Source: Bacillota bacterium
Lineage (GTDB): Bacteria > Bacillota > Sulfobacillia > JAJZYS01 > JAILZS01
NCBI GenBank assembly: GCA_023512375.1
Contig: JAILZS010000002.1
Span: 2,659-66,658, forward strand
DNA length: 64,000 nucleotides
Direction of reading: 5' to 3'
Positions 2,626 through 64,000 of the stretch are shown here, piece by piece; the stretch's first letter is position 1; each line of letters begins with the position of its first letter. The position numbers and the translations under genes were made by a program. The notes under the pieces were generated by a model. That model saw only the letters and a program-made list of their open reading frames with translations, did not search any database and had not been told where the DNA came from.

Positions 2626-4170
2626 TCAGCCGACGGGGTGGGCGTCGAACAGGTCGATCTCCTCGTCCGGCCGCGGCTGCCAGTGCAGCCACTTCACGAC
2701 GCCGTACACGTCGTCCTGCTGCCACAGGAAGATCCACGGTGCGAGCTGTTGGATCTTCACCTGCACGGCGTTCCAGTCGGCCTTCTGCGCCGCCAGGGTG
2801 GTGGCCGTCTCGGCCTTGGTGATGAGCGCGGTCAGGGCCGGGTCGTTGAAGCCGCTGTAGGTTTGGTTTCCCTCGAACAGGTAGCCGAGGGTGTCCTGCG
2901 GGTAGAGCGAGGGGCCCCAGCCGAGGTAGAACATGTCGCCGGCCGTGCGGTTGATGATCTTCGTCAGGTGGACCGCCCAGGCGTCGGAGATCACGTGCAC
3001 GTGGATGCCGATCTGGCCGAGCTCGGCGGCCACCGCCTGGCAAACCTCGCTGTCCATGGGATAGCGCCCGTTCGAGCAACTGAACGTGAGGTTGAGGTCC
3101 TGCGGCTTGTAGCCGGCCTCCTCGATGAGCTTCTTCGCCAGCGAGGGGTTATAGGTGTAGGGGCGGATGGCCGGGTCGAAGCCCGAGTTCGTGCGCGGCA
3201 GGGCGCCGGGGTCGCGGATGGCGTGCCCGTCCATGACGTCGCGGATGAGGAGCGGCACGTTCACCGCGTAGTTGAGGGCTTGGCGCACCTTCACGTTGTC
3301 GAGCGGTCCCGGCTTGAGGTTGACAAGGGCGATGTAGTCGAAGCGGGCGCTCGGCTCGAGGATGACGCGGGCGCCGTTGGCGCGCTGCACCACGGGGATG
3401 TCCGTGTACGGCAGCTCCTCGATGATGTCGACCTTACCGGCGAGGAAGGCGGACAGGCGGGCGCTGAAGTCCGGGATGACGTCGAACACGACGTTCTGGA
3501 TGGCGGGCTTGCCGCGCCAGTAGTGGGGGTTGGCCTTGAGCACAAGGTTCTGGCCCAAGGTCTGGCTCACGAACTCGTACGGGCCGGTGCCGATCGGGTG
3601 GCTGGCGAAGTACTTCAGCCCATGCTGCTGGATGTACTTGGGGGGCATGACCAGGAACTCCGTGGCCAGGAGGTAGGGGAAGAACGGCACGAACCGGCTC
3701 AGGTGGAAGACGACGGTGTACGGGTTGGGCGCCGTCACAGACTTCACGGCGCTGAAGTAGGCGGCCACCGCCGACTTGTTGGCGGGGTTCTGGATGTAGG
3801 ACATGGTGAACTGGACGGCGGAGGCGTCGAACGGCTCGCCGTCCTGGAAGCGCACGCCATGCCGAAGGGTGAGGGTCCAGGTGGTGGGCGAGGTGGCCTT
3901 CCAGCTCGTGGCCAGCCAGGGGATGACGGCCTCGGTCTTGCCGTCGAGGGCGAGCAGGGGGTCGTAGATCTGCTGCAGCTGCCAGTTCGTGGTGGCGTCC
4001 ACGATCGTGTCGGGGATGAGGCTCAACGCGTCGGAACCGATGGCCACCGACACGGTGTCGTGGCCAGAGGCGGCGCGGTGGACCGCGGCCGACGCCGACG
4101 CGGGCAGGAGCATCGAAACCGCCAGCGCGGCCATGGCGCCGCGTGCCGCAAGGGATCTCCCGGTATGCAT
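2626..4170 (-). CDS. ABC transporter substrate-binding protein, family 5 (peptide/nickel)
   Basis: 514 aa with an N-terminal signal peptide (MHTGRSLAARGAMAALAVSMLLPASASA) and SBP family-5 motifs (TNWQLQQIYDPLLALDG, PYEFVSQTLGQNLVLKANPHYWRGKPA). RBS GGGAGGT lies before the ATG. Confidence 0.85.
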   Translation of the reverse strand: MHTGRSLAARGAMAALAVSMLLPASASAAVHRAASGHDTVSVAIGSDALSLIPDTIVDATTNWQLQQIYDPLLALDGKTEAVIPWLATSWKATSPTTWTLTLRHGVRFQDGEPFDASAVQFTMSYIQNPANKSAVAAYFSAVKSVTAPNPYTVVFHLSRFVPFFPYLLATEFLVMPPKYIQQHGLKYFASHPIGTGPYEFVSQTLGQNLVLKANPHYWRGKPAIQNVVFDVIPDFSARLSAFLAGKVDIIEELPYTDIPVVQRANGARVILEPSARFDYIALVNLKPGPLDNVKVRQALNYAVNVPLLIRDVMDGHAIRDPGALPRTNSGFDPAIRPYTYNPSLAKKLIEEAGYKPQDLNLTFSCSNGRYPMDSEVCQAVAAELGQIGIHVHVISDAWAVHLTKIINRTAGDMFYLGWGPSLYPQDTLGYLFEGNQTYSGFNDPALTALITKAETATTLAAQKADWNAVQVKIQQLAPWIFLWQQDDVYGVVKWLHWQPRPDEEIDLFDAHPVG

Positions 4171-11950: not shown

Positions 11951-12112
11951 CAACGAAGGACGCCCGTCGCATGTGGAAGGGCGTCCCGGTACGTCGCACC
12001 CTCCCCTTTATCTCTCAGCGCCCGCGCGCTGCAGGAGTTGGCACCTTCGGCGACGAGTCGCCGGGTTGCCGGGCTTCATCGGGCCAGTCCCTCCGCCTCT
12101 CTCGATAACGGG
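11951..12112 (-). promoter_or_regulatory. SAM-I (S-box) riboswitch with intrinsic terminator, leader of metY-metX
   Basis: The minus-strand sequence CGTTATCGAGAGAGGCGGAGGGACTGGCCCGATGAAGCCCGGCAACC...GGTGCCAACTCCTGCAGCG...CTGAGAGATAAAGG matches the SAM-I consensus (P1 UUAUCgAGAG / GAGAUAAA, GGAGGGAcuGGCCCgaUGAa, GCAACC, GGUGCcAAuUCCuGCAG). A hairpin GGGACGCCC...GGGCGTCC plus TTCGTTGT terminator follows at 11951..11988. Confidence 0.8.
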
Positions 12113-17591: not shown

Positions 17592-19049
17592 TCAGGCCCG
17601 CCAGGGTGCGTCCGGAGGCACGTGGGGCGGCGGCACGAGCTCCTCCACCACGCGGCGGTAGGGGCTCTGGGCCGTGGCGCGGGCGAACTCGGCCCGGGCC
17701 TCCGCCACCCTCCCCGGCTCGAGGACGAACCCCAATCCCGCCAGGGCCATGGCCTTGGCGGCGTACAGCATGCCCTTCATGCCCACGCCGGAGCCGGCCG
17801 CGGCCACGTTCTGCCAGCTGTGGCCTGGCGTGCCGACGGGGGCCGTGGCCACGCCGAGAAAGCCGGTGGGGACGATCCAGGAGACGTCGCCCGCGTCGGT
17901 GGAGTAGAAGCCGACCTCCCCCCGCCCCACCACCCCCAGGCTCTCGTCCATGAGCAAGGCGGCGTCGGGCTCCTCTCCGGGCGACCAGCCCAGGGCCCGG
18001 TACCGCGCCTCCGCCTCCTCCCGTGCCCCGGGGGGCAGGTGCTCGGCCATGGCGCGCGCCCAGGCGCGGTCGTCCGCGTCGAACCCCACCGGGCCGATGA
18101 GGCGCATGGCCTCCGCCAGGAGGCGGGCCGCCACCTCGTTGGGAAGGATGTTCCACAGCCCGTCCACCAGGCGCACATCCACCTCCGTCCCCGTCATGAG
18201 GGCGGCGCCCCGGGCGCAGTCCACCACCCGGGCGTAGGCGGCGTCCACGTGGGCGCGGTTTTTCGCCCGGACGAAGTACAGGGAGGCGGCGCGCTCCGGC
18301 ACCACGTTGGGTGCCCCGCCCCCGTCGGTGATCGTGTAGTGGATGCGAACGTCCGGGGGGACATGCTCGCGCAGGTAGTTCACGCCCACGTCCATGAGCT
18401 CCACGGCGTCGAGGGCGCTCCTGCCCCGCTCCGGATCGGCGGCGGCGTGGGCGGCGGCACCCCGGAAGGTGAAGGTGGCGGTGGCGGTGGCCAGGCACGA
18501 GGAGAGGCTGGCGGCGGTGGCGTCCCCAGGGTGGAAGTAGAACGCCACGTCCACGTCCTCGAAGGCGCCGTCGGCGGCCATGAACGCCTTGGCGTCCACC
18601 GACTCCTCCGCCGGGCAGCCGAGGTACAGGACCGTGCCGCCGAGGCCCCGCGCCGCCAGCACGTCCTTCAGGGCGAGGGCGGCGCCCAGGGCCGCCGTGC
18701 CCAAGAGGTTGTGCCCGCACCCGTGTCCGCTGCCGCCCGGCTCCAGGGCCTCGCGTCGGGGCGCGTCCGTCTGGGAGAGCCCCGGCAAGGCGTCGAACTC
18801 GCCCAACATGGCGATCACAGGCCTTCCCTCGCCCCAGCCGGCGCGGATCGCAGTGGCCATGCCGCCCACCCCCCGCCGCACCGAGAACCCCTCCGCCTCC
18901 AGGGCACGCGCCTGCCGCTCGCTGGCGCGAAACTCGAGCAGGCCCAGCTCCGGCCGCCGCCAGATCTCCCGCGCCATCTCCGTCAGCATCCCCTGCCTGC
19001 GGGCGACCGCCTCGGCCACCGCGCGCGCATCCTCCGTGCGCATCGCCAT
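17592..19049 (-). CDS. M20 family amidohydrolase (AbgB / aminobenzoyl-glutamate utilization protein B-like)
   Basis: 485 aa peptidase M20 with metal ligands (GHGCGHNLLG, ...AEESV...) and AbgB-like length and architecture. Confidence 0.7.
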   Translation of the reverse strand: MAMRTEDARAVAEAVARRQGMLTEMAREIWRRPELGLLEFRASERQARALEAEGFSVRRGVGGMATAIRAGWGEGRPVIAMLGEFDALPGLSQTDAPRREALEPGGSGHGCGHNLLGTAALGAALALKDVLAARGLGGTVLYLGCPAEESVDAKAFMAADGAFEDVDVAFYFHPGDATAASLSSCLATATATFTFRGAAAHAAADPERGRSALDAVELMDVGVNYLREHVPPDVRIHYTITDGGGAPNVVPERAASLYFVRAKNRAHVDAAYARVVDCARGAALMTGTEVDVRLVDGLWNILPNEVAARLLAEAMRLIGPVGFDADDRAWARAMAEHLPPGAREEAEARYRALGWSPGEEPDAALLMDESLGVVGRGEVGFYSTDAGDVSWIVPTGFLGVATAPVGTPGHSWQNVAAAGSGVGMKGMLYAAKAMALAGLGFVLEPGRVAEARAEFARATAQSPYRRVVEELVPPPHVPPDAPWRA

Positions 19050-52986: not shown

Positions 52987-54255
<1,269 letters not shown>

Positions 54256-54304
54256 CTCCCCACCCCTCTTTCCGGCTGGCGCCGTGATCGGTCTTGGGGC
54301 GTGG

Positions 54305-54907
54305 TCAACGGCCGCCGGAGAGGGTGCGCGGCGTCAGCACCTCGTCGATGAGGCCATACGTGCGGGCCTCCTCGGGAGCCATCCAGTAGTCGCGCTCCAC
54401 GTCCTGCGCCACCTTTTCGAACGGCTGCCCGCTCGCCTCGGCCAGGATGCGGGTGGTGAGCTCCTTCTCCCGCAAGAGCTCCTTCATGGTGATCTCCACA
54501 TCGGTGAGCTTGCCGCCCAGGTTGCCCACCCACGGCTGGTGGATCATGACGCGGGAGTTCGGCAGGGCCTTGCGCTTACCCTTGGTACCCCCCGCCAGGA
54601 GAATGGCCGCCATGGACGCCGCCATGCCCACGCACACGGTCTCCACCTCGGCCCGGATGAAGCGCATCGTGTCGAAGATGCCCAGGCCGGCGTGCACGCT
54701 CCCCCCGGGGGAGTTGATGTACAGGTGCACGTCCTTCTCCGGATCGTCGCTGTCGAGGAAGAGGAGCTGGGCGATGACGACGTTGGCGACCTGGTCGTCG
54801 ATCTCCGTCCCGAGGAAGATGATGCGGTCCTTGAGCAACCGGCTGTAGATGTCGTACGCGCGCTCGCCGCGGTTGGTCTGCTCGATGACGTACGGGACCA
54901 CCGTCAC
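54305..54907 (-). CDS. clpP: ATP-dependent Clp protease proteolytic subunit ClpP
   Basis: About 200 aa ([23 protein letters not shown]..., [19 protein letters not shown], catalytic Ser/His context). GTG start behind GGAGAGAAGGGAGG; the track ORF is extended upstream. Confidence 0.95.
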
Positions 54908-54935
54908 CGCCTCCCTTCTCTCCGTTCTCCGAAGG

Positions 54936-56282
54936 TTACCCGGCTCCGTGGTCGCCGGACGCCGCCTCGGTCGCCTCCGCCTCGCCCTCGGGCGCCTCGC
55001 CCTCGCCCTCGTCCGCCGGGGCGTAGATGTCCGCCAAGAAGGCGAGGGCTTTCTCCCGCAGGAGCACGTCGCGGATGTAGGCGCGTTGGCCTCGGCTGAG
55101 GGTTCGCTGCCCATCCCTCCGCCCCTTCTCCGGTCGGCCCAGCAGGCGGTCCGCAGCGGCGGCGATCTCTCCCTCCAGGGGCTCGAGACCCTCCCGCTCG
55201 GCCAGCGCCTCCAGCACCATGTTGCGCTTGGCGCGGCGCTCGGCCGCCGGGCGCATCTCCTCCCGCAACGCCGCCTCGTCCTTGTTGGCGGCCGCCAGGT
55301 AGGCCTCCACGGGAACACCCTGCTGCCGCAGGCTGAGCGCGAACTCCTCCCACAGGATATCCGACTGGCGTTCCACCAATGGCTTGGGAACCGCGACCGC
55401 CACGCGGTCCACGAGCGCGTCGACGGCGGCGTCCAGGCGCGCCTCCCGCTCCCGCCGGCGCTCCTGCGCCTCCAGGTAGGCGCGCGCCTTCGTGCGCAGG
55501 TCGGCCACCGACTCCGCCCCCGCGTGCCGGGCCAAGGCGTCGTCGAGGGGCGGGAGTTCGCGCTCCACCACGCCCAGCACGCGGATGCGCGTCAGCGCCT
55601 CCTCGCCCGCGTGCGCGGGGGCGGTGGCGGGCACCGTCCACACCACCTCGCGCGTCTCGCCTACCGGCGATCCGTTCAGGGCGGCCGCCAGGCCGGCGAT
55701 GTCGCCGTCCCCCGCCTGCATGTCCAGGACGGTCCGGCGCGGTCCCTCGACCACCTCGCCCCCGATCTCGGTGGTCACCTCTGCGCGGACGAGCGACTGC
55801 TCCCCCACCCGGTCGGCCTCCCGCTCCCGGGCGTGCTGGCGCCGGTACTCCTCGAGGAAGGCGTCCACCGCCTGCTCGTCCACCTCGCGCCGCTCCACCT
55901 CCACCCGGAGGTCGCGCACGTCGCCCAGTTCGATCGGCGGCCGCACGGCCACCCTGGCCCTATAGGTGAGAGGCTGGCCCTCGACGATGGCCGGATCCCC
56001 CTCCAGGTCGGCGCTTCCCACCGGCCGAAGCCCCTCCTGCTCGACCGCCTCGTCGAACGTCTCCTCCACGAGCCGGCCGAGGGCTTCCTGCAGGATGGCG
56101 TCGCGTCCGAGGAAGGCTTCGACGATCGGGCGCGGCGCCTTGCCGCGGCGGAAGCCGGCGAAGGCATAGCGCTGACCCAGCCGGCGCACGGCCTCCTCGA
56201 CCGCGCGCTGGGCGCGTTCCGCCTCCACCTCCACCGTCACGAGCGCCTCGTCGGGTTGGGTCCGCTCCACCGTCACCTTCAC
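54936..56282 (-). CDS. tig: Trigger factor
   Basis: About 448 aa with a ribosome-binding N-domain ([20 protein letters not shown]...), a PPIase domain, and a C-domain. GTG start behind GGAGGG. Confidence 0.9.
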
Positions 56283-56376: not shown

Positions 56377-56461
56377 TGGTGCGGGCGGAGAGACTCGAAC
56401 TCTCACGAGCGCTGCTCATGGGATCCTAAGTCCCACGCGTCTGCCGTTCCGCCACGCCCGC
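56377..56461 (-). tRNA. tRNA-Leu (anticodon TAG), type II with long variable arm, CCA encoded
   Basis: Folded by hand: acceptor GCGGGCG/CGCCCGC, anticodon stem TGGGA/TCCCA, loop CTTAGGA, long variable arm, T-arm GAGAG-TTCGAGT-CTCTC, ACCA end. Confidence 0.85.
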
Positions 56462-56470
56462 GCGAACCTC

Positions 56471-56547
56471 TTGGTGGGCCATGATGGATTCGAACCATCG
56501 ACGCCCCGCTTAAAAGGCGGGCGCTCTAACCGCTGAGCTAATGGCCC
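56471..56547 (-). tRNA. tRNA-Lys (anticodon TTT), CCA encoded
   Basis: GGGCCATTAGCTCAGCGGTTAGAGCGCCCGCCTTTTAAGCGGGGCGTCGATGGTTCGAATCCATCATGGCCCACCA; anticodon loop CTTTTAA. Confidence 0.9.
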
Positions 56548-56618
56548 AAGGGGCCCGGACGACCCCCGGCGGAGGCGGTGCGCCGAGGCGCGCCCCAAAG
56601 ATCCGTAGACACAAAAAC

Positions 56619-56696
56619 TGGGGTGAATGAGGGGACTCGAACCCCCGACCCCCAGGGCCACAACCTGGTGCTCTAACCAACTGAGCTACATCCACC
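56619..56696 (-). tRNA. tRNA-His (anticodon GTG) with encoded G-1 and CCA
   Basis: G-1 pairs with discriminator C73; acceptor GTGGATG/CATTCAC; anticodon loop TTGTGGC. Confidence 0.9.
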
Positions 56697-56906: not shown

Positions 56907-58442
56907 ATGCTGTTCCCCCATCGGCCGCGCGCGCTCCTGGCCGCCGCGGCTCTCTCCGTCGCCGCCCTCGCGGCGCCGACTGTGCCCGTCCAGGCCCACG
57001 CCCGCCTGCGCGCCTCTCCTCAGGGCGTCCTCAACGTCGGCCTCCAGTCGGACATCGTGACCATGGACCCCTCGCAGTCCTCGGCCTATGTGGACCGCCA
57101 AGTGATGATCAACATCTACGACACGTTGCTCCAGTTCAGCCCGCGCATGCAGGTGGAGCCCGACCTGGTCACGCGCTGGACGATCGGCGACGGCGGCCGC
57201 CGGTATACGCTCTACTTGCGCCACGGCGTCACGTTCCAGGACGGGACGCCGTTCGACGCCCAAGCGGTGATCTTCAACCTCGACCGCGACCGTCAGCCCT
57301 CCTCGGCCCGTGCCTCGACCCTCAAGCCCATCGTGTCGCTCCAGGCCGTCGGGCGTTACGAAGTGGTGATCCAGCTCTCGGCCCCGTACGCTCCCCTCCT
57401 GTCCGTGCTGGCTGGGCGCAGCGGCATGATGTGCTCGCCCGCCGCCGTGCAGCGGGAAGGGGCGAGCTACGGCTCCGACCCGGTGGGCACGGGGCCGTTC
57501 GAATTCGTCAAGTGGGTGCGCAACGACTACATCGAACTGCGGGCCAACCCCCACTACTGGCGCCCCGGCGTGCCCAAGGTGGCCGAGGTCGTCTACCATC
57601 CCATCCCGGACCCCACGACCGAGCTCAACGCCCTCAAGACGGGCGAGCTGCAGATCGTGGACACCCTGGCCGCCAAGGACCTGGCGTCGGCCAAGGCGGA
57701 CCCCGGCTTGCGCGTCTATGAGTCCCCCGGCCTCGGCTGGGTCGGCATCTACATCAACACGAAGGCGGCGCCTTTCAACAACCTCGACGTGCGCCGCGCC
57801 CTGCAGTACGCGATCAACCGGGCCGTGATCGACCGTGTCATCTACTACAACACGGCGACGGTGGCCTATACGCAGTTCCCGCCCGCCCAATTCGCCTACG
57901 ACCCCTCCCTCACCATCCCCTACAGCCCAGCCACCGCCCGCCAGCTCCTGGCCCAGGCCGGGTACGCCCACGGTCTCTCGTTCACCATGCAGGGCGACAA
58001 CGACCCGGTCACGCAGCAGGAGCTGCAGCTCATCCAGATCATGCTCAAGCAAGTCGGCATCGACATGAACATCCAGCTCCTCGACTTCGGCACGCTGCTC
58101 GGCAACGAGCTGAAGGAGAACTACCAGGCCATGGCGCTGGGTTGGAGCGGTCGCGTCGACCCAGACGAGAACTCCTACCAGTTCGACGTCACCGGCGGCA
58201 GCCTCAACCAGACCGGGTTCGGCAACGCCACGATCGACGGCTACCTGCTCAAGGCGCGCACGTACACGAGCGAGATCGTGCGCCGTTCGTACTACTGGGC
58301 CGCGGCCCGCCTGCTCGACTACTACTCGCCGTACGTGTTCATCGCCTTCCCGCCGGACTTCAAGGCCACCTCGACCCGGGTGCAAGGGTTCGTCCACTAC
58401 CCGGACGGCCTCATGCGCCTGTGGGACGTGAGCCTCGGCTAG
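56907..58442 (+). CDS. ABC transporter substrate-binding protein, family 5 (peptide/nickel)
   Basis: Signal peptide MLFPHRPRALLAAAALSVAALAAPTVPVQA plus SBP_bac_5 motifs (MDPSQSSAYVDRQVMINIYDTLL, GTGPFEFVKWVRNDYIELRANPHYWRPGVPK). ATG behind AAAGGGGG; the track ORF starts earlier at a GTG inside the tRNA promoter region. Confidence 0.85.
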   Translation: MLFPHRPRALLAAAALSVAALAAPTVPVQAHARLRASPQGVLNVGLQSDIVTMDPSQSSAYVDRQVMINIYDTLLQFSPRMQVEPDLVTRWTIGDGGRRYTLYLRHGVTFQDGTPFDAQAVIFNLDRDRQPSSARASTLKPIVSLQAVGRYEVVIQLSAPYAPLLSVLAGRSGMMCSPAAVQREGASYGSDPVGTGPFEFVKWVRNDYIELRANPHYWRPGVPKVAEVVYHPIPDPTTELNALKTGELQIVDTLAAKDLASAKADPGLRVYESPGLGWVGIYINTKAAPFNNLDVRRALQYAINRAVIDRVIYYNTATVAYTQFPPAQFAYDPSLTIPYSPATARQLLAQAGYAHGLSFTMQGDNDPVTQQELQLIQIMLKQVGIDMNIQLLDFGTLLGNELKENYQAMALGWSGRVDPDENSYQFDVTGGSLNQTGFGNATIDGYLLKARTYTSEIVRRSYYWAAARLLDYYSPYVFIAFPPDFKATSTRVQGFVHYPDGLMRLWDVSLG

Positions 58443-58517
58443 CGGGGCGCGTCCACCCCGGCCGCGCCGGGCGCCCGGCGCGGCCGGCGCGTCGCCCCAC
58501 GCCCCGAACGGGAGGGA

Positions 58518-59468
58518 ATGCCGGTGTTGACCTACGTCGCGCGCCGCCTTCTCCTTTCGGTGCCGGTGGTGCTGTTCGTCCTCGTCGGCGTCTTCCTCCT
58601 CATCCACCTCACGCCCGGCAACCCTGCCGCCATCATGCTGGGTGAGGAGGCGAGCCCCGCGGCCGTGGCCGCGCTGACGCGCAAGCTCGGGCTCGACCTG
58701 CCCTTGCCCGTGCAGTTCGCGCGCTACCTCTGGGCCGTAGTGCACGGCAACCTGGGGAGCTCGCTCCAGTCCGGCCAGCCGGTCACCCTCCTCATCGGCC
58801 AGGCCCTGCCGGTCACCCTGGAGCTGGCGGTCCTCGCCATCGCGGTGGCCGTCGCCGTCTCCATCCCCCTCGCCGCCGTCGCCGTCATCCACCGGGGCGG
58901 CGTCGTCGACTACGTCCTCCAGGTCCTTTCCCTGGTGGGCGTGGCGCTGCCGAATTTCTGGTACGGGCTCATCCTCATCGACCTGTTCGCCCTCACCTGG
59001 CCCATCCTGCCCGTCAACGGCTTTCAGCCCCTCTCGGCCGGCCTGGGCACCAACCTGCGCTACATGGTCCTGCCCACGGTCGTGCTCGCCACATTTCTCG
59101 TGTCGGTGGGCGCCAACGTCCTGCGCGAGGACCTCCTCGAAGCGGCGGCGGAGGACTTCATGCGCACCGCCCGGGCCAAGGGCCTGTCGCGCTCGGCCGC
59201 GGTGTGGCGGCACGCCCTGCGCAACGCCCTCCTCCCCTACCTGACCGTGATGGGTCTTCAGTTCGGCGGCCTCTTGGGCGGGGTGGTCATCACCGAGACG
59301 GTGTTCGGCGTACCGGGCATCGGCCGGCTCATCGTGAACGCCATCTTCAACCGCGACTTCCCACTCCTCCAGGGAGGCGTCCTCTTCTTCGCCGTCGTCG
59401 TGGTGTTGGTCAACCTCGCCACCGACCTCCTCTACGCCGTCATGGATCCGCGCGTCACCTACCGCTGA
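58518..59468 (+). CDS. ABC transporter permease (DppB/OppB family)
   Basis: 316 aa (LTYVARRLLLSVPVVLFVLVGVFLLIHLTPGNPAA..., LPYLTVMGLQFGGLLGGVVITETVFGVPGIGRL). Confidence 0.85.
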   Translation: MPVLTYVARRLLLSVPVVLFVLVGVFLLIHLTPGNPAAIMLGEEASPAAVAALTRKLGLDLPLPVQFARYLWAVVHGNLGSSLQSGQPVTLLIGQALPVTLELAVLAIAVAVAVSIPLAAVAVIHRGGVVDYVLQVLSLVGVALPNFWYGLILIDLFALTWPILPVNGFQPLSAGLGTNLRYMVLPTVVLATFLVSVGANVLREDLLEAAAEDFMRTARAKGLSRSAAVWRHALRNALLPYLTVMGLQFGGLLGGVVITETVFGVPGIGRLIVNAIFNRDFPLLQGGVLFFAVVVVLVNLATDLLYAVMDPRVTYR

Positions 59469-59469
59469 C

Positions 59470-59830
59470 GGGAGGCGATGCCCTTGAACGAGCCCCTCGC
59501 CGCCCCCTCGGGCCCCGCACCGGAGCCCCTCCCGGCGGACCCGTCCCGGCCCCCCCCCGGCGGCCCCCGCGGCGCCCCCCCCCCCCCCCACCAATGGGTA
59601 GGCGGCGCCCAGGGCCGCCGCAACGCCCACCCCCCCCACCCCAGGGGCCGCCTCCCCAAAGCGTAACCCCCCACCAACCGCCACGCCGGCGGCGCCGCCG
59701 CCCGCGCCCCGCGCCGCCCCCGCGGGCCCCGCCCCGGCGCCCCCCCCGGCGCCCCCGCCCCGGCCGCCGGGCGGCGGCCGCCTCGGCTTCGCCCATGCCC
59801 CCCTCCTATGGGTAGGCGGCGCCCTGGTCC
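59470..59830. repeat. C-rich/Pro-codon low-complexity tract with 17-bp direct repeat ATGGGTAGGCGGCGCCC (59597 and 59808) and C10 homopolymer
   Basis: Seen directly: poly-C runs (cccccccccc at about 59581), a duplicated 17-mer, and a 360-bp stretch coding mostly Pro/Ala/Gly in all frames. Confidence 0.6.
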
Positions 59831-59934
59831 TCCTCATCGCCCTCACCGCCCTGGCGGCGCCCCTCCTCGCCCCCGCCGGGCCGACCGCCGCCGACCTGTC
59901 CGCCATCCTTTCGCCCCCCGGGCACGGCCACCTC

Positions 59935-60594
59935 ATGGGCACCGACGACCTGGGGCGGGATGTGTGGGCACGGGTCGTGTGGGGAGCCGGCATCACCCTC
60001 CCCGCCGGCCTCGAAGCCACTCTCCTGGCCCTCCTCCTGGGCGCGCCCCTCGGCCTCGTGGCGGGCTACTTCGGCGGGGTGGCGGGCGAGGTCATCCTGC
60101 GCGCCACCGACGTCCTCCTCGCCTTCCCCAGCCTGGTGCTGGCGCTCGCCATGGCCGCCTTCCTCGGCCCGGGGGAGGGCAACGCCATCCTCGCCATCGG
60201 CATCGTCTCCGCCCCCGCCTTCGTGCGCGTGGCGCGGGCCAGCGTCCTCCCCCTGCGCCAGCGCGAGTTCGTGGAGGCGGCTCGCAGCCTGGGAGCGGGG
60301 GACGGGCGCATCCTCCTCCGGCACGTGCTGCCCAACGCCTGGGGACCGGTGGGCGTCCTCGCCTTCCTCACCGTCGGCAGCGCCATCCTCGCCGAGACCA
60401 GCCTCAGCTTCCTCGGCCTCGGGACCCAGCCGCCCGCCCCCAGCTGGGGAGCCATGGTGCAAGAGGGAGCCGACTACCTCTCGCAGGCGCCGTGGATCTC
60501 CCTCTATCCCGGCCTCGCCATCCTCGTCACGGTGGTCTCCTTCAACCTCCTGGGCAACGGCCTGCGCCAGGCCCTCGCCCCCAGGCGCGGCTGA
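59935..60594 (+). CDS. ABC transporter permease (DppC/OppC family), intact C-terminal 219 aa; N-terminus (TM1) lies in the disrupted C-rich tract upstream (possible pseudogene or assembly error)
   Basis: MGTDDLGRDVWARVVWG...AETSLSFLGLGTQPPAPSWGAMV is the DppC signature. The in-frame upstream sequence ...LLWVGGALVLLIALTALAAPLLAPAGPTAADLS encodes TM1 but has no start codon before a TAG at 59599. An alternative frame from ATG 59478 (MPLNEPLAAP...HQWVGGA) ends at 59666. Confidence 0.6.
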   Translation: MGTDDLGRDVWARVVWGAGITLPAGLEATLLALLLGAPLGLVAGYFGGVAGEVILRATDVLLAFPSLVLALAMAAFLGPGEGNAILAIGIVSAPAFVRVARASVLPLRQREFVEAARSLGAGDGRILLRHVLPNAWGPVGVLAFLTVGSAILAETSLSFLGLGTQPPAPSWGAMVQEGADYLSQAPWISLYPGLAILVTVVSFNLLGNGLRQALAPRRG

Positions 60595-60613
60595 GGCCGC
60601 GGCGGCCCGCCGC

Positions 60614-60955
60614 CTATCGCAAGGCGCGGCGCACGGCACGCGCCCACAGGGCCGCCGCGCCCTCCTGCCCCAGGCTGTGGGCGACGCGCCGCAGCCAGCC
60701 GGGCAGGCGCAGCGTGAGGTAGAGGAGGGCGAGGGAGGAAACGAGGGCGGCCGGGGCGGAGCCGCTGGCCGGCAGGTCGAGCGCCGCCACCTGGAACACG
60801 ATGAGCAGCACCACCTGCACGGGCTGCAGGAGAAGCACGGCGGCGAACTCCGCCGCCCACGCCCTCGCCACCGCCTGGGCGGCGGGATGGACGACGCACA
60901 CGAGGGCGAGCGGCGCCAGGGCGGCCAGCACGAAAGCCTGAGAACAACGTTTCAT
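60614..60955 (-). CDS. Hypothetical small hydrophobic membrane protein (113 aa)
   Basis: MKRCSQAFVLAALAPLALVCVVHP... has three predicted TM segments. The start codon sits about 10 nt after a TGgCATAAT extended -10-like motif (possibly leaderless). Confidence 0.35.
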   Translation of the reverse strand: MKRCSQAFVLAALAPLALVCVVHPAAQAVARAWAAEFAAVLLLQPVQVVLLIVFQVAALDLPASGSAPAALVSSLALLYLTLRLPGWLRRVAHSLGQEGAAALWARAVRRALR

Positions 60956-61102
60956 CGGCCGGTTCCATTATGCCAGATGCGGCAACGCGGTGTCTGGTTG
61001 CAGCCAAGGTCCCGAGCATGGCCCGCCCCAGGGTGGGGTGGGACCGGGCCTGCCGAAGCTTTTCCTCAGGAGGGGATTGTGCTATAACCGTGCGGCTCTG
61101 CG

Positions 61103-61270
61103 ATGGAAGAACGGGAGCAGCACGAGCACACCGCGCCTTCTGAGCTGCAGCGGAACAGGGTCAGCGCAAGCCACTACTGCCCCATTTGTTCACGGCCGCT
61201 CGAGGCGCGCCACTGCAAGCTGGTGTGTTCCATCTGCGGTTACTACATGTCCTGTTCGGATTTTTACTGA
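61103..61270 (+). CDS. Small zinc-ribbon protein (55 aa; CPIC...HC...CSIC), not in ORF track
   Basis: ATG GAA GAA CGG ... TAC TGA translates to MEEREQHEHTAPSELQRNRVSASHYCPICSRPLEARHCKLVCSICGYYMSCSDFY. Two CxxC pairs 15 aa apart; preceded by TGTGCTATAAC (extended -10); 72 nt upstream of the STAS gene. Confidence 0.4.
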   Translation: MEEREQHEHTAPSELQRNRVSASHYCPICSRPLEARHCKLVCSICGYYMSCSDFY

Positions 61271-61342
61271 AACAGAATCGAGGTGCCGCTGGCCCGGGCG
61301 AGCCGGGAGCGCGGCCCGTTGTCCTGTGGAGAAGGAGGAAAC

Positions 61343-61687
61343 GTGGCACTCAGGATCACCAACCGGGAAGTGGATGGCGTCACCGTGGTGGAATTGGATG
61401 GACGGATTGTACTGGGCGAGGAAAGCAACTCGCTGCGCGAGACCGTCAAATCGCTGCTTGCCAACAACAAGCGCAAGATTGTTCTCGATATGCGCAATGT
61501 GACGTACATTGACAGCACAGGCCTAGGCACGTTGGTGGCCAGCTACCAGAGCGCGCGCAATCAGGGCGCTACGTTGAAGCTGGCCAATCTGGGATCGAAA
61601 TTCCAAGAAATCCTGCAGGTGACCAAACTGATCACTGTGTTTGACGTCTACGACAACGAAACTGCGGCCATCAAAAGTTTCCAGTAG
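61343..61687 (+). CDS. STAS-domain anti-sigma-factor antagonist (SpoIIAA/RsbV family)
   Basis: VALRITNREVDGVTVVELDGRIVLGEESNSLRETVKSLL...VTYIDSTGLGTLVASYQSARNQGATLKLANL. GTG start behind GAAGGAGGAAAC; no cognate anti-sigma kinase or sigma factor nearby. Confidence 0.8.
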   Translation: MALRITNREVDGVTVVELDGRIVLGEESNSLRETVKSLLANNKRKIVLDMRNVTYIDSTGLGTLVASYQSARNQGATLKLANLGSKFQEILQVTKLITVFDVYDNETAAIKSFQ

Positions 61688-61797
61688 CCCTCGCCAACCT
61701 CGCTGGCCGGCGCACAGGCTGGACGGGCGCGGCTTGCGTCAGCGGCGGGAACACAGCCGCCGGCATGGCGGGTGCCGTGCCCAGGGGGCGAAGACGC

Positions 61798-63126
61798 TCA
61801 TTCCTCCAGCCGGTACATTGTCAGTCCGCTGAGCAATTTCGGGTAGAAGTCGGTGGATTTCTGCGGCAGGACGTTCCCGCTGAGGGCAATCTCCATCACC
61901 TGTTCCACGCGCACGGGATTCAACAGGCAGGCCAGTTGTGCGCTGCCGTTTTCGACCGCCGCAATGGCCTTGTCCATCTCTCGTTCATAGGTGAGATAGG
62001 ACTCATCCCGGACCGCTGCGGGGGTGATGCCCAGCCCTTTTTCGAGCACCAGGCGATGCAACACCATCACGTCGAGCCGGCGCTGGGCCGGAGTGGCGTC
62101 GGGAATCAGTTCATCCAAGTTCACGTTGGGCCGAAGGACGAAGAGGAACAACCCCGCCCCGGCCGCACAGATGCCGATGGTGGTGCGGGTGGCGCCACGC
62201 TGCATCAGGTCTTTGCGGAACTGCTCCCGTTCCTGCTGCGGGTGGGCGGAGGCGGGATAGGCGTACCAGTCAAAGTACGGCTCCAACTGCTTGCGAAAGC
62301 GAGTGAACTCGAACCCGGGCAGATTGGCAATCACGCGGTGCGTGGGCAGGATGGTGATTCCCTCGCTGTCGGCATTGAAAAACGTCATCATGGCGAACTC
62401 GTAGGGCGCGTGGGGCACGGGCGCCGCAGCGGCCTGGCGACGCTCGTTGCGATAGGCGAGCGCGGTTTCGTAGCGGTGGTGGCCATCGGCGATGACCAGC
62501 TTTTTGTCGGCCATTTCGTTGACGAAGCGCTGGATCGTCTCTTCGTCCACGATGGGCCAAAGGCGATGGACAACGCCATATTCATCGCGCACTTCGACCG
62601 GGGCGGGTACGCGGGAGACGCTTTCGAGCAGTTGATCCACACGGCGGTGCGGATCGGAAAACAACAGGAAAAGCTGCCCGGTCTGGACACGGGTCGTGCG
62701 CAGCAGCTCGAGCCGGTCGGCTTTCGGAGCTGCCAGGGTCTGCTCGTGCCGGTGCACGACGCCGGCTTCGTAGTCTTCCACCCGGCCCAGCGCGATGAAT
62801 CCCCGGCGATGGCGAAGCACATCGGTACCGGGCACGACGTATTCCTGGAAATAGGCATAGAGAGCCGGGGCAGGATCGCGCACCAGGATCCCCTCTGCGA
62901 TCCAGCTTTCGAGCGTCGCCGCGGCGCGTGTATAGACGTTGGTGCGTTCGTTGTCGCCGGGTTCGGGCCGGCCTTTTTCGATGCGCACCAGGTTGTAGGG
63001 ATCGAGTGCGTAGTACCGCGCCTGCATCTCCGGCGTGATTTTGTCGTAGGGCTGCGTCAGCACGCGCTCCAGATTCAGGCGGCTGGCGTTGTAGCGATAG
63101 GCGGCAAATGCGCGGATCTCAGCCAT
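61798..63126 (-). CDS. DUF1015 family protein (uncharacterised conserved protein)
   Basis: 442 aa, MAEIRAFAAYRYNASRLNLERVLTQPYDKITPEMQARYYALDPYNLVRIEKG... with the typical DUF1015 N-terminal pattern (F-x-A-x-R-Y-N, PYD-I). Assigned from memory of the family, not from a search. Confidence 0.5.
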   Translation of the reverse strand: MAEIRAFAAYRYNASRLNLERVLTQPYDKITPEMQARYYALDPYNLVRIEKGRPEPGDNERTNVYTRAAATLESWIAEGILVRDPAPALYAYFQEYVVPGTDVLRHRRGFIALGRVEDYEAGVVHRHEQTLAAPKADRLELLRTTRVQTGQLFLLFSDPHRRVDQLLESVSRVPAPVEVRDEYGVVHRLWPIVDEETIQRFVNEMADKKLVIADGHHRYETALAYRNERRQAAAAPVPHAPYEFAMMTFFNADSEGITILPTHRVIANLPGFEFTRFRKQLEPYFDWYAYPASAHPQQEREQFRKDLMQRGATRTTIGICAAGAGLFLFVLRPNVNLDELIPDATPAQRRLDVMVLHRLVLEKGLGITPAAVRDESYLTYEREMDKAIAAVENGSAQLACLLNPVRVEQVMEIALSGNVLPQKSTDFYPKLLSGLTMYRLEE

Positions 63127-63229
63127 TCCGGCCTCACTGCGTGATCGTGCACCAGCCCGCTATTCTAGCAATTCACCAACAGACGCCCAAGAAGACAACG
63201 CGACTGCGCTAGAATGAGCATCGGGAGCG

Positions 63230-63919
63230 ATGTCGATGCAGGAACCCCACAAGGATTTCCGCGACGTGCGGCTGCTGATTTTTGATCTCGACGGCACGCT
63301 GATCGATTCCAAGCTCGACCTGGCCCTTTCGGTCAATGCGGTGCGCGCCTGGATGGGCCGGCCGCCGCTGGAGCCGGAACGCATCTACAGCTACATCGGC
63401 CAGGGGGCGCCGATGCTGATTCGCCGCGCGCTGGAAGAAGGCGTCAGCGAAGAAGAGATCGAGCGGGGACTGAAATACTTCCTCGAGTACTACCACGCCC
63501 ACATGCTGGACAACACAGTCCCCTACCCGGGTGTTCGCGAAGGGTTGGAACAGTTGGCGCAGCGGCCGAACACCCTGCTGACGGTCTACACGAACAAGCC
63601 GGAACGGTTCAGCCGCCAAATTCTAGAAGGCCTCGACCTGGCCCGATTTTTCCGGCAGGTGTACGGAGGCAATCGCTTCGAACGAAAGAAGCCGGATCCG
63701 ATGGGCGTCGAGGCGCTGCTGCGCGAATTCCAGTGCGCGCCGCACGAGGCCATGATGGTCGGCGACAGCGAAATCGACGTGCTGACCGCACGCAAGGCCG
63801 GCATCTGGTGCGCCGGCGTCACCTACGGACTCGGCGCCGAACGACTGCGCGAGCATCCGCCCGACCTGCTGCTCGATTCGCTGTGCGATCTCCCCGCTCG
63901 ACTTGCTGGCCGCCCCTGA
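63230..63919 (+). CDS. gph: HAD-superfamily hydrolase (phosphoglycolate phosphatase-like)
   Basis: Motif I LLIFDLDGTLIDS, motif II TVYTNKP, motif III/IV ...KKPDP...MVGDSEIDVLTARKAGI. The start is possibly the second ATG at 63236. Confidence 0.75.
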   Translation: MSMQEPHKDFRDVRLLIFDLDGTLIDSKLDLALSVNAVRAWMGRPPLEPERIYSYIGQGAPMLIRRALEEGVSEEEIERGLKYFLEYYHAHMLDNTVPYPGVREGLEQLAQRPNTLLTVYTNKPERFSRQILEGLDLARFFRQVYGGNRFERKKPDPMGVEALLREFQCAPHEAMMVGDSEIDVLTARKAGIWCAGVTYGLGAERLREHPPDLLLDSLCDLPARLAGRP

Positions 63920-64000
63920 CGGGAGGGCGCCGGCAAACCCACGCTAGTCCGCGGAGGAATGCTGCCGGTACCACGCCCAGGTGCGACGGAGTCCTTCCTC

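What the first reader, a model, noticed from the sequence alone, without database searches (positions are those of the whole stretch)
59470..59940. DppC-like permease N-terminus disrupted by a ~210-bp C-rich, Pro/Ala-coding tandem duplication flanked by a 17-bp direct repeat
The 17-mer ATGGGTAGGCGGCGCCC occurs twice, about 211 bp apart (about 59597 and 59808). Between the copies lie poly-C runs of up to 10 and codons that read Pro/Ala/Gly in every frame. An ORF from ATG 59478 (MPLNEPLAAPSGPAPEPLPADPSRPPPGGPRGAPPPPHQWVGGA...) stops at 59666. TM1 of the permease (LLWVGGALVLLIALTALAAPLLAP) is encoded downstream with no start codon, and the track ORF begins only at MGTDDLGRD, after TM1. Removing one repeat unit nearly restores a normal DppC N-terminus (...HQWVGGALVLLIAL...). 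This is therefore a slipped-strand duplication or frameshift making a pseudogene, a homopolymer assembly error, or a genuine Pro-rich N-terminal extension with the frame misread. The G-rich complementary strand also has several G-runs of 4 or more, so G-quadruplex potential.
Basis: seen in the sequence. Interest (0 to 1): 0.6.

Follow-up and report, generated by a model that had tools for sequence, protein, structure and literature searches.

The report
Assembly artefact inside a peptide-permease gene
The apparent 214-base duplication that breaks this peptide-transporter gene is almost certainly a mistake made when the metagenome contig was assembled, because an independent assembly of the same organism has the gene intact and without the extra bases.

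Summary
The 17-mer occurs at 59594 and 59808, 214 nt apart. The lag-214 self-similarity (77-81% ungapped) is the only one of its kind in the 64 kb window. The extra DNA shifts the dppC-like gene out of frame.

It is very probably not biology. A Logan contig from run SRR15214121 (L081) matches the window at 99.9% on both sides: 3 mismatches in 2439 nt. It has only 5 nt where the window has 219 nt (59552-59770). That gives an intact 298-aa permease, the same length and N-terminal layout as homologs at 78-92% identity (295-303 aa).

The extra stretch is two substitution-only, progressively degraded images of the true neighbouring sequence. They meet in an unrecognisable 68-nt core. The stretch is 89% GC with T at 2%.

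The same contig (NCBI "MAG: Firmicutes bacterium", 105127 nt) also switches at about 60934, 1.16 kb downstream. It goes from this 75% GC genome to a 62% GC Acidobacteriota-like genome, so it is probably chimeric.

Verdict: mis-assembly at an extreme-GC stretch. It is not a pseudogene, a Pro-rich extension, a mobile element or a programmed frameshift. Most of the G-quadruplex motifs lie inside the artefact. Reads were not available, so the exact technical cause is inferred.

The parts
58518..59468 (+). dppB-like ABC permease gene, immediately upstream and intact
   Evidence: BPD_transp_1 123 bits and BPD_transp_1_N 49 bits. Identical to L081 except at 58565 and 58592.
59478..59551 (+). Genuine 5' end of the dppC-like gene. 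The start is ATG 59478 or TTG 59484, with GGAGG at 59471-59475.
   Evidence: 100% identical to the independent contig L081. The gene call on the Logan contig starts at the TTG. The RBS is read directly from the sequence.
59552..59770 (.). Spurious stretch: 219 nt where the independent assembly has 5 nt (net +214). It is 89% GC with T at 2%.
   Evidence: The L081 alignment splits here.
59552..59631 (.). Tail 1: a degraded, ungapped image of the true sequence now at 59766-59845. It contains the spurious first copy of the 17-mer (59594-59610).
   Evidence: 21 mismatches in 80 nt against L081 1276-1355 and no indels. The error rate rises to about 50% beyond 59632.
59632..59699 (.). Unrecognisable low-complexity core where the two degraded tails meet. 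It holds the TAA (59664-59666) that ends the 62-aa ORF.
   Evidence: 50-70% mismatch in both registers. Local alignment to L081 scores at shuffle level: 29 against a shuffle mean of 28.9, sd 3.9.
59700..59770 (.). Tail 2: a degraded, ungapped image of the true sequence at 59486-59556.
   Evidence: 12 mismatches in 71 nt against L081 1210-1280, with errors falling towards 59770.
59771..60594 (+). Genuine remainder of the dppC-like gene: TM1 (LLWVGGALVLLIAL...), the real 17-mer copy at 59808-59824, and the BPD_transp_1 domain.
   Evidence: One mismatch (59799, synonymous) to L081 over 59771-60934. BPD_transp_1 109 bits; OppC_N 23.1 bits, just under its 23.9-bit cut-off.

Best explanation
The 214 extra bases are a mis-assembly in the deposited MAG contig, not part of the organism's genome.

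The true locus is a compact SBP-dppB-dppC operon. Its dppC-like gene encodes an intact permease of 298-300 aa with a short Pro-rich cytoplasmic N-terminus before TM1.

The true sequence here is 79-83% GC and full of GGC/GCC triplets. I infer that error-free read coverage was poor across it. The assembler extended the left side with error-laden sequence that decays rightwards. It extended the right side with error-laden sequence that decays leftwards. It then joined the two tails through low-complexity C-rich words instead of overlapping them.

The result is a false, diverged tandem duplication that breaks the frame.

Shown: the insert is absent from an independent assembly, it has a degraded-image structure, the homolog architecture lacks it, and there is a second assembly fault nearby.

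Inferred: the technical cause, such as short-read dephasing or GC dropout plus graph joining.
For: 1. Logan contig L081 (SRR15214121, 2728 nt) covers window 58277-60934. It has 3 mismatches in the 2439 flanking bases, and 5 nt where the window has 219 nt.
2. L081 encodes P0001, an uninterrupted 298-aa protein. Deleting window 59552-59765 reproduces it, apart from the start-codon choice, with one residue different.
3. Homologs at 78-92% identity (P0003-P0006) are 295-303 aa with a single N-terminus of 30-45 aa before TM1. Related contigs show dppB and dppC 21-24 nt apart.
4. The extra stretch is not foreign DNA. It is two ungapped, substitution-only images of the adjacent true sequence. Error rates climb from 0 at the outer edges to about 50-70%, which is random level, in the middle. 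T falls from 12% to 2%.
5. In tail 2, all 12 miscalls equal one of the next two true bases, against 6 of 12 for the opposite direction. This is the pattern described for lagging-strand dephasing in reads from the opposite strand (PMC3141275).
6. NCBI's annotation of the same contig had to start the protein at a CTG directly after the second 17-mer (P0002, 256 aa, MCL6594756.1). The deposited record therefore carries the same break.
7. The same contig changes from a 75% GC Firmicutes-like genome to a 62% GC Acidobacteriota-like genome at about 60934, which shows unreliable assembly here.
Against: No reads could be inspected. It is not known whether SRR15214121 is the read set from which the MAG was built, so a strain-specific allele is not formally excluded.

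Tail 1 shows no directional miscall bias (13 of 21 either way). The dephasing mechanism is therefore only half supported.

The sequencing platform and assembler are unknown.

Only one independent contig of this species was found. The JGI metagenome scan with the shared 5' flank found nothing.
Confidence: 0.9

Rival explanations
1. A genuine, strain-specific 214-bp tandem duplication by slipped-strand or microhomology-mediated replication has frameshifted dppC and made it a pseudogene. The duplicate has since decayed.
For: The lag-214 register is kept without indels over about 165 nt, and a 17-nt exact repeat sits in both copies. The frame is broken as expected for 3n+1.
Against: The flanks are 99.9% identical to the single-copy allele, while the inner copies are 17-50% diverged. 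That would need hypermutation confined to 219 nt.

Divergence is graded from both edges towards the centre, and always on the non-functional side. This suits read-tail degradation, not neutral decay over so short a time. A chimeric join lies 1.16 kb away.
Confidence: 0.05
2. The long Pro/Ala-rich N-terminal extension is genuine. Only a homopolymer length error, for example C8 at 59630-59637 being truly C7, breaks the frame.
For: Frame 0 (ATG 59478) and the dppC frame overlap as open frames between 59602 and 59663. A single 1-nt deletion there would therefore fuse them. C-runs of 8-15 are error-prone.
Against: The independent assembly lacks the whole 214 nt, not one base. No homolog has such an extension. 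The fused protein would carry WVGGA twice and a degenerate pseudo-TM1.
Confidence: 0.02
3. A small non-autonomous mobile element, or other foreign DNA, inserted into dppC with a 17-bp target-site duplication.
For: Direct repeats flank about 197 nt of intervening DNA.
Against: The intervening DNA is a degraded copy of the neighbouring gene sequence in strict register, not foreign DNA. There are no terminal inverted repeats at its ends; one search lists only imperfect GC-rich pairs. It has no other copy in the window. No RNA family matches. The similarity extends well outside the 17-mer on both sides.
Confidence: 0.01
4. Programmed +1 ribosomal frameshifting or a diversity-generating mechanism acts on the N-terminus.
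For: Overlapping open frames and slippery C-runs.
Against: It is not conserved in any relative. The substitutions are not adenine-specific, being G>C, T>A, T>G, T>C and A>C. The single-copy allele exists at 99.9% flank identity.
Confidence: 0.01

Closest known systems
False duplications and mis-joins in short-read or metagenome assemblies at extreme-GC, low-complexity sequence
   Same: The extra near-tandem copy is absent from an independent assembly. It breaks a conserved gene and sits in an 80-90% GC stretch. A second mis-join lies nearby on the same contig.
   Different: False duplications are usually near-identical copies from uncollapsed haplotypes or overlaps (own knowledge). Here the copy is heavily degraded, with a gradient of substitutions from both sides, which points to error-laden read tails being built into the consensus.
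Illumina sequence-specific errors triggered by GGC motifs and inverted repeats (Nakamura et al. 2011, PMC3141275)
   Same: The true sequence has 5-6 GGC and 9-10 GCC per 100 nt in 1200-1400 of L081. The errors are consecutive substitutions without indels and start at a sharp position. In tail 2 every miscall equals one of the two bases that a reverse-strand read would have just passed. The paper notes that such errors cause gaps and false branching during contig extension.
   Different: Tail 1 shows no such directionality. The platform of the source data is unknown. The paper does not describe erroneous tails being joined into a duplication.
DppC/OppC-type ABC transporter permease (Pfam BPD_transp_1 with OppC_N)
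   Same: The underlying gene is an ordinary member. It has a BPD_transp_1 domain, an OppC_N-like TM1, the LMGTDxLGRD motif after TM1, and an SBP_bac_5 - dppB - dppC gene order.
   Different: Nothing unusual once the artefact is removed. The N-terminus is mildly Pro-rich, which is expected at 75% GC.
Inter-genome chimeric contigs in metagenome-assembled genomes
   Same: Window 1-60934 follows a 75% GC Firmicutes-like genome. Window 60921-64000 follows a 62% GC Acidobacteriota-like genome at 83.6% nt identity to GCA_037440845.1. The switch occurs within a short stretch that resembles both, inside analogous hydrophobic N-terminal coding sequence.
   Different: This is a neighbour of the finding, not the finding itself.

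Membership tests
Assembly artefact (false duplication) | The extra sequence is absent from an independent assembly of the same organism | tested here: met
   L081 (Logan, SRR15214121) has 5 nt in place of window 59552-59770. Flanks are 99.9% identical.
Assembly artefact (false duplication) | Removing it restores the gene model seen in relatives | tested here: met
   Deleting 59552-59765 gives a 300-codon ORF matching P0001. Homologs are 295-303 aa.
Assembly artefact (false duplication) | No support from reads: coverage, pair spacing, base quality | not testable with these tools
   No read data are accessible.
Genuine recent tandem duplication (slipped-strand) | The divergence between copies is commensurate with the divergence of the flanks from the single-copy allele | tested here: not met
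   Copies are 17-50% diverged, flanks 0.1%.
Genuine Pro-rich N-terminal extension | The extension is present in frame in homologs | tested here: not met
   None of P0001 and P0003-P0006, nor the more distant hits, has it.
MITE or insertion sequence with target-site duplication | Foreign sequence with terminal inverted repeats and other copies in the genome | tested here: not met
   The insert is an in-register image of adjacent gene sequence. There are no terminal IRs. No other copy is in the window.
Diversity-generating retroelement target | Adenine-specific substitutions between template and variable copy | tested here: not met
   The spectrum is dominated by G>C, T>A, T>G, T>C and A>C.
DppC/OppC-type ABC permease (the underlying gene) | BPD_transp_1 transmembrane domain | tested here: met
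   109 bits against a cut-off of 26.4.
DppC/OppC-type ABC permease (the underlying gene) | OppC_N N-terminal TM segment | tested here: inconclusive
   23.1 bits against a cut-off of 23.9, E = 6.8e-5. Most relatives carry precomputed PF12911.
DppC/OppC-type ABC permease (the underlying gene) | Operon with a family-5 solute-binding protein and a DppB-type permease | tested here: met
   SBP_bac_5 at 300 bits and BPD_transp_1_N plus BPD_transp_1 upstream. The order is the same in L082-L085.
G-quadruplex-forming sequence (minus strand) | Four G-runs of 3 or more with loops of 1-7 nt | tested here: met
   Three merged motifs lie in 59470-59940, but two lie wholly inside the artefact and a third mostly so. 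The true sequence keeps one G3+ motif (window 59526-59547) and no motif of four runs of 4 or more. Folding in vivo is not testable here.

The most novel reading that the evidence does not exclude
The window records a real strain-specific allele. A 214-bp tandem duplication of the dppC 5' end underwent extremely localised, GC-directed hypermutation, which inactivated the permease in one strain, while a co-occurring strain keeps the intact gene.
Probability: 0.04. Interest if true: 0.35.

Novelty: not a real feature. Interest (0 to 1): 0.05.

Why it matters
It matters only as quality control. The deposited MAG contig carries a false frameshift in a transporter gene, which NCBI annotated as a truncated 256-aa protein with a CTG start. 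It also probably carries an inter-phylum chimeric join 1.16 kb further on.

Scans for pseudogenes, repeats, G-quadruplexes or Pro-rich extensions in very high-GC MAGs will pick up such artefacts. The signature seen here is a usable flag for them:
- an ungapped, substitution-only, graded 'echo' of neighbouring sequence;
- T-depleted composition;
- flanks identical to a single-copy assembly.

There is no biological novelty.

Tried and rejected
- Exact-protein look-ups of the window's DppB (316 aa), of P0002 and of the DUF1015 protein found nothing on record.
- A scan of JGI metagenome contigs with the shared 32-nt 5' flank found nothing, so there is no third independent copy.
- A literature search for SRR15214121 found nothing, so the sample and its relation to the MAG remain unknown.
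- The genome-contig scan returned only distant relatives at 53% identity or less. They were of no use for the junction.
- Rfam found nothing in 59300-60100.
- Local alignment of the 59625-59705 core to L081 on both strands scored at shuffle level.
- A 20-nt exact match of 59601-59620 to 18678-18697 was judged a chance GC-rich match. The lag-214 register continues through it.
- The dephasing-direction test supported tail 2 but not tail 1, so the specific sequencing-chemistry cause is left as inference.
- The mobile-element, DGR, programmed-frameshift and single-homopolymer-error readings were considered and rejected for the reasons given under rival explanations.

Full report
**What is in the sequence**

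The window is 75% GC. A family-5 solute-binding protein gene, a dppB-like permease gene (58518-59468) and a dppC-like permease gene ending at 60594 lie in a row on the + strand.

That is 214 nt apart, and no shuffle produced even one match.

The similarity goes far beyond the 17-mer:
- 59474-59637 and 59688-851 are 77% identical without any gap.
- No other lag within the region exceeds 54%.
- In a scan of all lags 30-1000 over the whole 64 kb, this is the only place reaching 70% over 120 nt.

The C runs are longer than reported, at C15, C9, C8 and C8.

The ORF from ATG 59478 is in frame 0 and stops at 59666. The dppC frame is open from 59602 but has no ATG, GTG or TTG before 59935. Because 214 = 3x71+1, WVGGA is read in frame 0 at the first 17-mer and in the dppC frame at the second.

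**The decisive comparison**

A protein search with the TM1-to-end translation returned two hits at 100% identity:
- P0001, 298 aa, from a Logan assembly.
- P0002, 256 aa, NCBI MCL6594756.1, 'MAG: Firmicutes bacterium', on a contig of 105127 nt.

P0002 starts MVLLIAL. That is a CTG at 59824, directly after the second 17-mer. The deposited record therefore has the same break, and this contig is evidently the source of the window. The window's DUF1015 protein also maps at 100% to a contig of that length.

P0001 reads MNEPLAAPSGPAPEPLPADPSRPPRGGRLGFAHAPLLWVGGALVLL.... This is the beginning of 'copy 1' fused to the end of 'copy 2'.

Its contig, L081 (SRR15214121, 2728 nt), aligns to the window in two blocks that overlap in L081: 58277-59628 and 59703-60937. 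Base by base:
- The window equals L081 from 58277 to 59551, with 2 mismatches in 1275 nt.
- It equals L081 again from 59771 to 60934, with 1 synonymous mismatch in 1164 nt.
- Between these, the window has 219 nt where L081 has 5 nt.

Deleting 59552-59765 gives a 300-codon ORF. Apart from start-codon choice, it differs from P0001 by one residue.

**Anatomy of the extra stretch**

It is not foreign DNA.
- 59552-59631 is an ungapped image of the true sequence that now lies at 59766-59845, with 21 of 80 positions mismatched.
- 59700-59770 is an ungapped image of the true sequence at 59486-59556, with 12 of 71 positions mismatched.
- The 68 nt between them match nothing. They show 50-70% mismatch in both registers, and local alignment scores are at shuffle level.

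Error density is zero at the outer edges and rises towards the middle from both sides. All differences are substitutions. They remove T (12% to 2%) and raise C (52% to 62%), and the stretch is 89% GC.

The first 17-mer copy lies inside tail 1 and is therefore spurious. The second is the real Leu-Trp-Val-Gly-Gly-Ala coding sequence.

**Homologs**

The nearest homologs are P0003 (92% identity), P0004 (83%), P0005 (84%) and P0006 (78%). They are 295-303 aa, each with a single stretch of 30-45 aa before TM1. The motif R-L-x-x-x-L-x-x-x-P-L-L-W-V-G-G aligns with P0001's RLGFAHAPLLWVGG. Their contigs show the same compact SBP-dppB-dppC order, with 21-24 nt between dppB and dppC. None has a Pro/Ala-rich insert.

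**How it most likely arose (inferred)**

The true sequence here is 79-83% GC, with 5-6 GGC and 9-10 GCC triplets per 100 nt. Such sequence is known to trigger runs of consecutive, direction-specific substitution miscalls in Illumina reads. Those miscalls cause coverage gaps and false branches during contig extension (Nakamura et al. 2011, PMC3141275).

The picture is two substitution-only tails, one decaying rightwards from the left flank and one decaying leftwards from the right flank, joined in a low-complexity core. That is what one expects if an assembler extended both sides with such reads and then linked them instead of overlapping them.

One prediction of the dephasing model is that miscalls repeat the base or two just read. 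It holds for tail 2: 12 of 12 in the reverse-read direction against 6 of 12 in the other. It does not discriminate for tail 1, at 13 of 21 either way. The platform, assembler and reads are unknown, so this step is inference.

**Independent sign of poor assembly**

L081 and the window part company at 60934. From 60921 to 64000 the window is 83.6% identical in DNA to three contigs of a 63% GC organism, including GCA_037440845.1. The named relatives of that organism's DUF1015 protein are Candidatus Acidoferrales. GC is 75.4% before the switch and 62.3% after it.

The minus-strand ORF 60614-60955 is a hybrid:
- Its first seven codons correspond to the start of the acidobacterial 259-aa gene.
- The rest is the C-terminal 106 residues of a membrane protein. 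That protein is at least 200 aa in L081, and its homolog (37% identity) is 264 aa in L085 and L086.

The 105-kb 'Firmicutes' contig is therefore probably an inter-phylum chimera, joined 1.16 kb from the finding.

**Rivals**

- Real recent duplication. It would require 17-50% divergence confined to 219 nt, while the flanks differ by 0.1% from the single-copy allele.
- Genuine extension with a one-base homopolymer error. It is contradicted by the absence of all 214 nt in L081 and in every homolog.
- Mobile element. It is contradicted by the in-register echo structure, the lack of terminal inverted repeats and the lack of other copies.
- DGR-type variation. It is contradicted by the substitution spectrum.
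- RNA element. No RNA family matches the region.

**G-quadruplex point**

Canonical motifs do occur on the minus strand. There are three merged G3+ motifs here. Two of the window's three motifs with four runs of 4 or more also lie here. Nearly all of them sit in the artefact. The true sequence keeps a single G3+ motif at 59526-59547.

**Verdict**

This is an ordinary DppC/OppC-type permease gene corrupted by a mis-assembly in a chimeric MAG contig. It is not a real feature, and its interest is low except as a quality-control example. The remaining uncertainty, about 10%, is that no reads could be examined and that only one independent contig of the species was found.

Noticed in passing
window 60921-60934 (junction); 60935-64000: Probable inter-genome chimeric join. 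The window follows the 75% GC Firmicutes-like contig L081 exactly up to 60934. It then follows a 62% GC Acidobacteriota-like genome, at 83.6% nt identity to L087-L089 (GCA_037440845.1).
   Followed up: yes
window 60614-60955 (-): A hybrid ORF created by that join. MKRCSQA comes from the start of the acidobacterial 259-aa gene. It is fused to the C-terminal 106 aa of a membrane protein that is at least 200 aa in L081; its homolog (37% identity) is 264 aa in L085/L086.
   Followed up: yes
window 59824-60594 (+): NCBI annotated the broken gene as a 256-aa protein (MCL6594756.1) starting at a CTG codon directly after the second 17-mer. This is a truncated product caused by the artefact.
   Followed up: yes
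window 59770 and 59799; 58565 and 58592: Four single-base differences from L081 lie outside the clearly degraded part. 59770 changes Arg to Gly at residue 25 of P0001. 59799 is synonymous. They are either strain SNPs or residual errors at the edge of the artefact.
   Followed up: partly
window 59601-59620 and 18678-18697: An exact 20-mer, GGCGGCGCCCAGGGCCGCCG, is shared between the artefact tail and a distant site. It is probably a chance GC-rich match.
   Followed up: no
window 12005-12111 (-); 56380-56695 (-): A SAM (S-box) riboswitch at 91.6 bits, and a cluster of three tRNA genes just upstream of the solute-binding protein gene.
   Followed up: no
window 3001-4000 and 53001-55000: GC dips to 65-66% inside an otherwise 72-81% GC sequence. 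These were not examined for further chimeric segments or acquired DNA.
   Followed up: no
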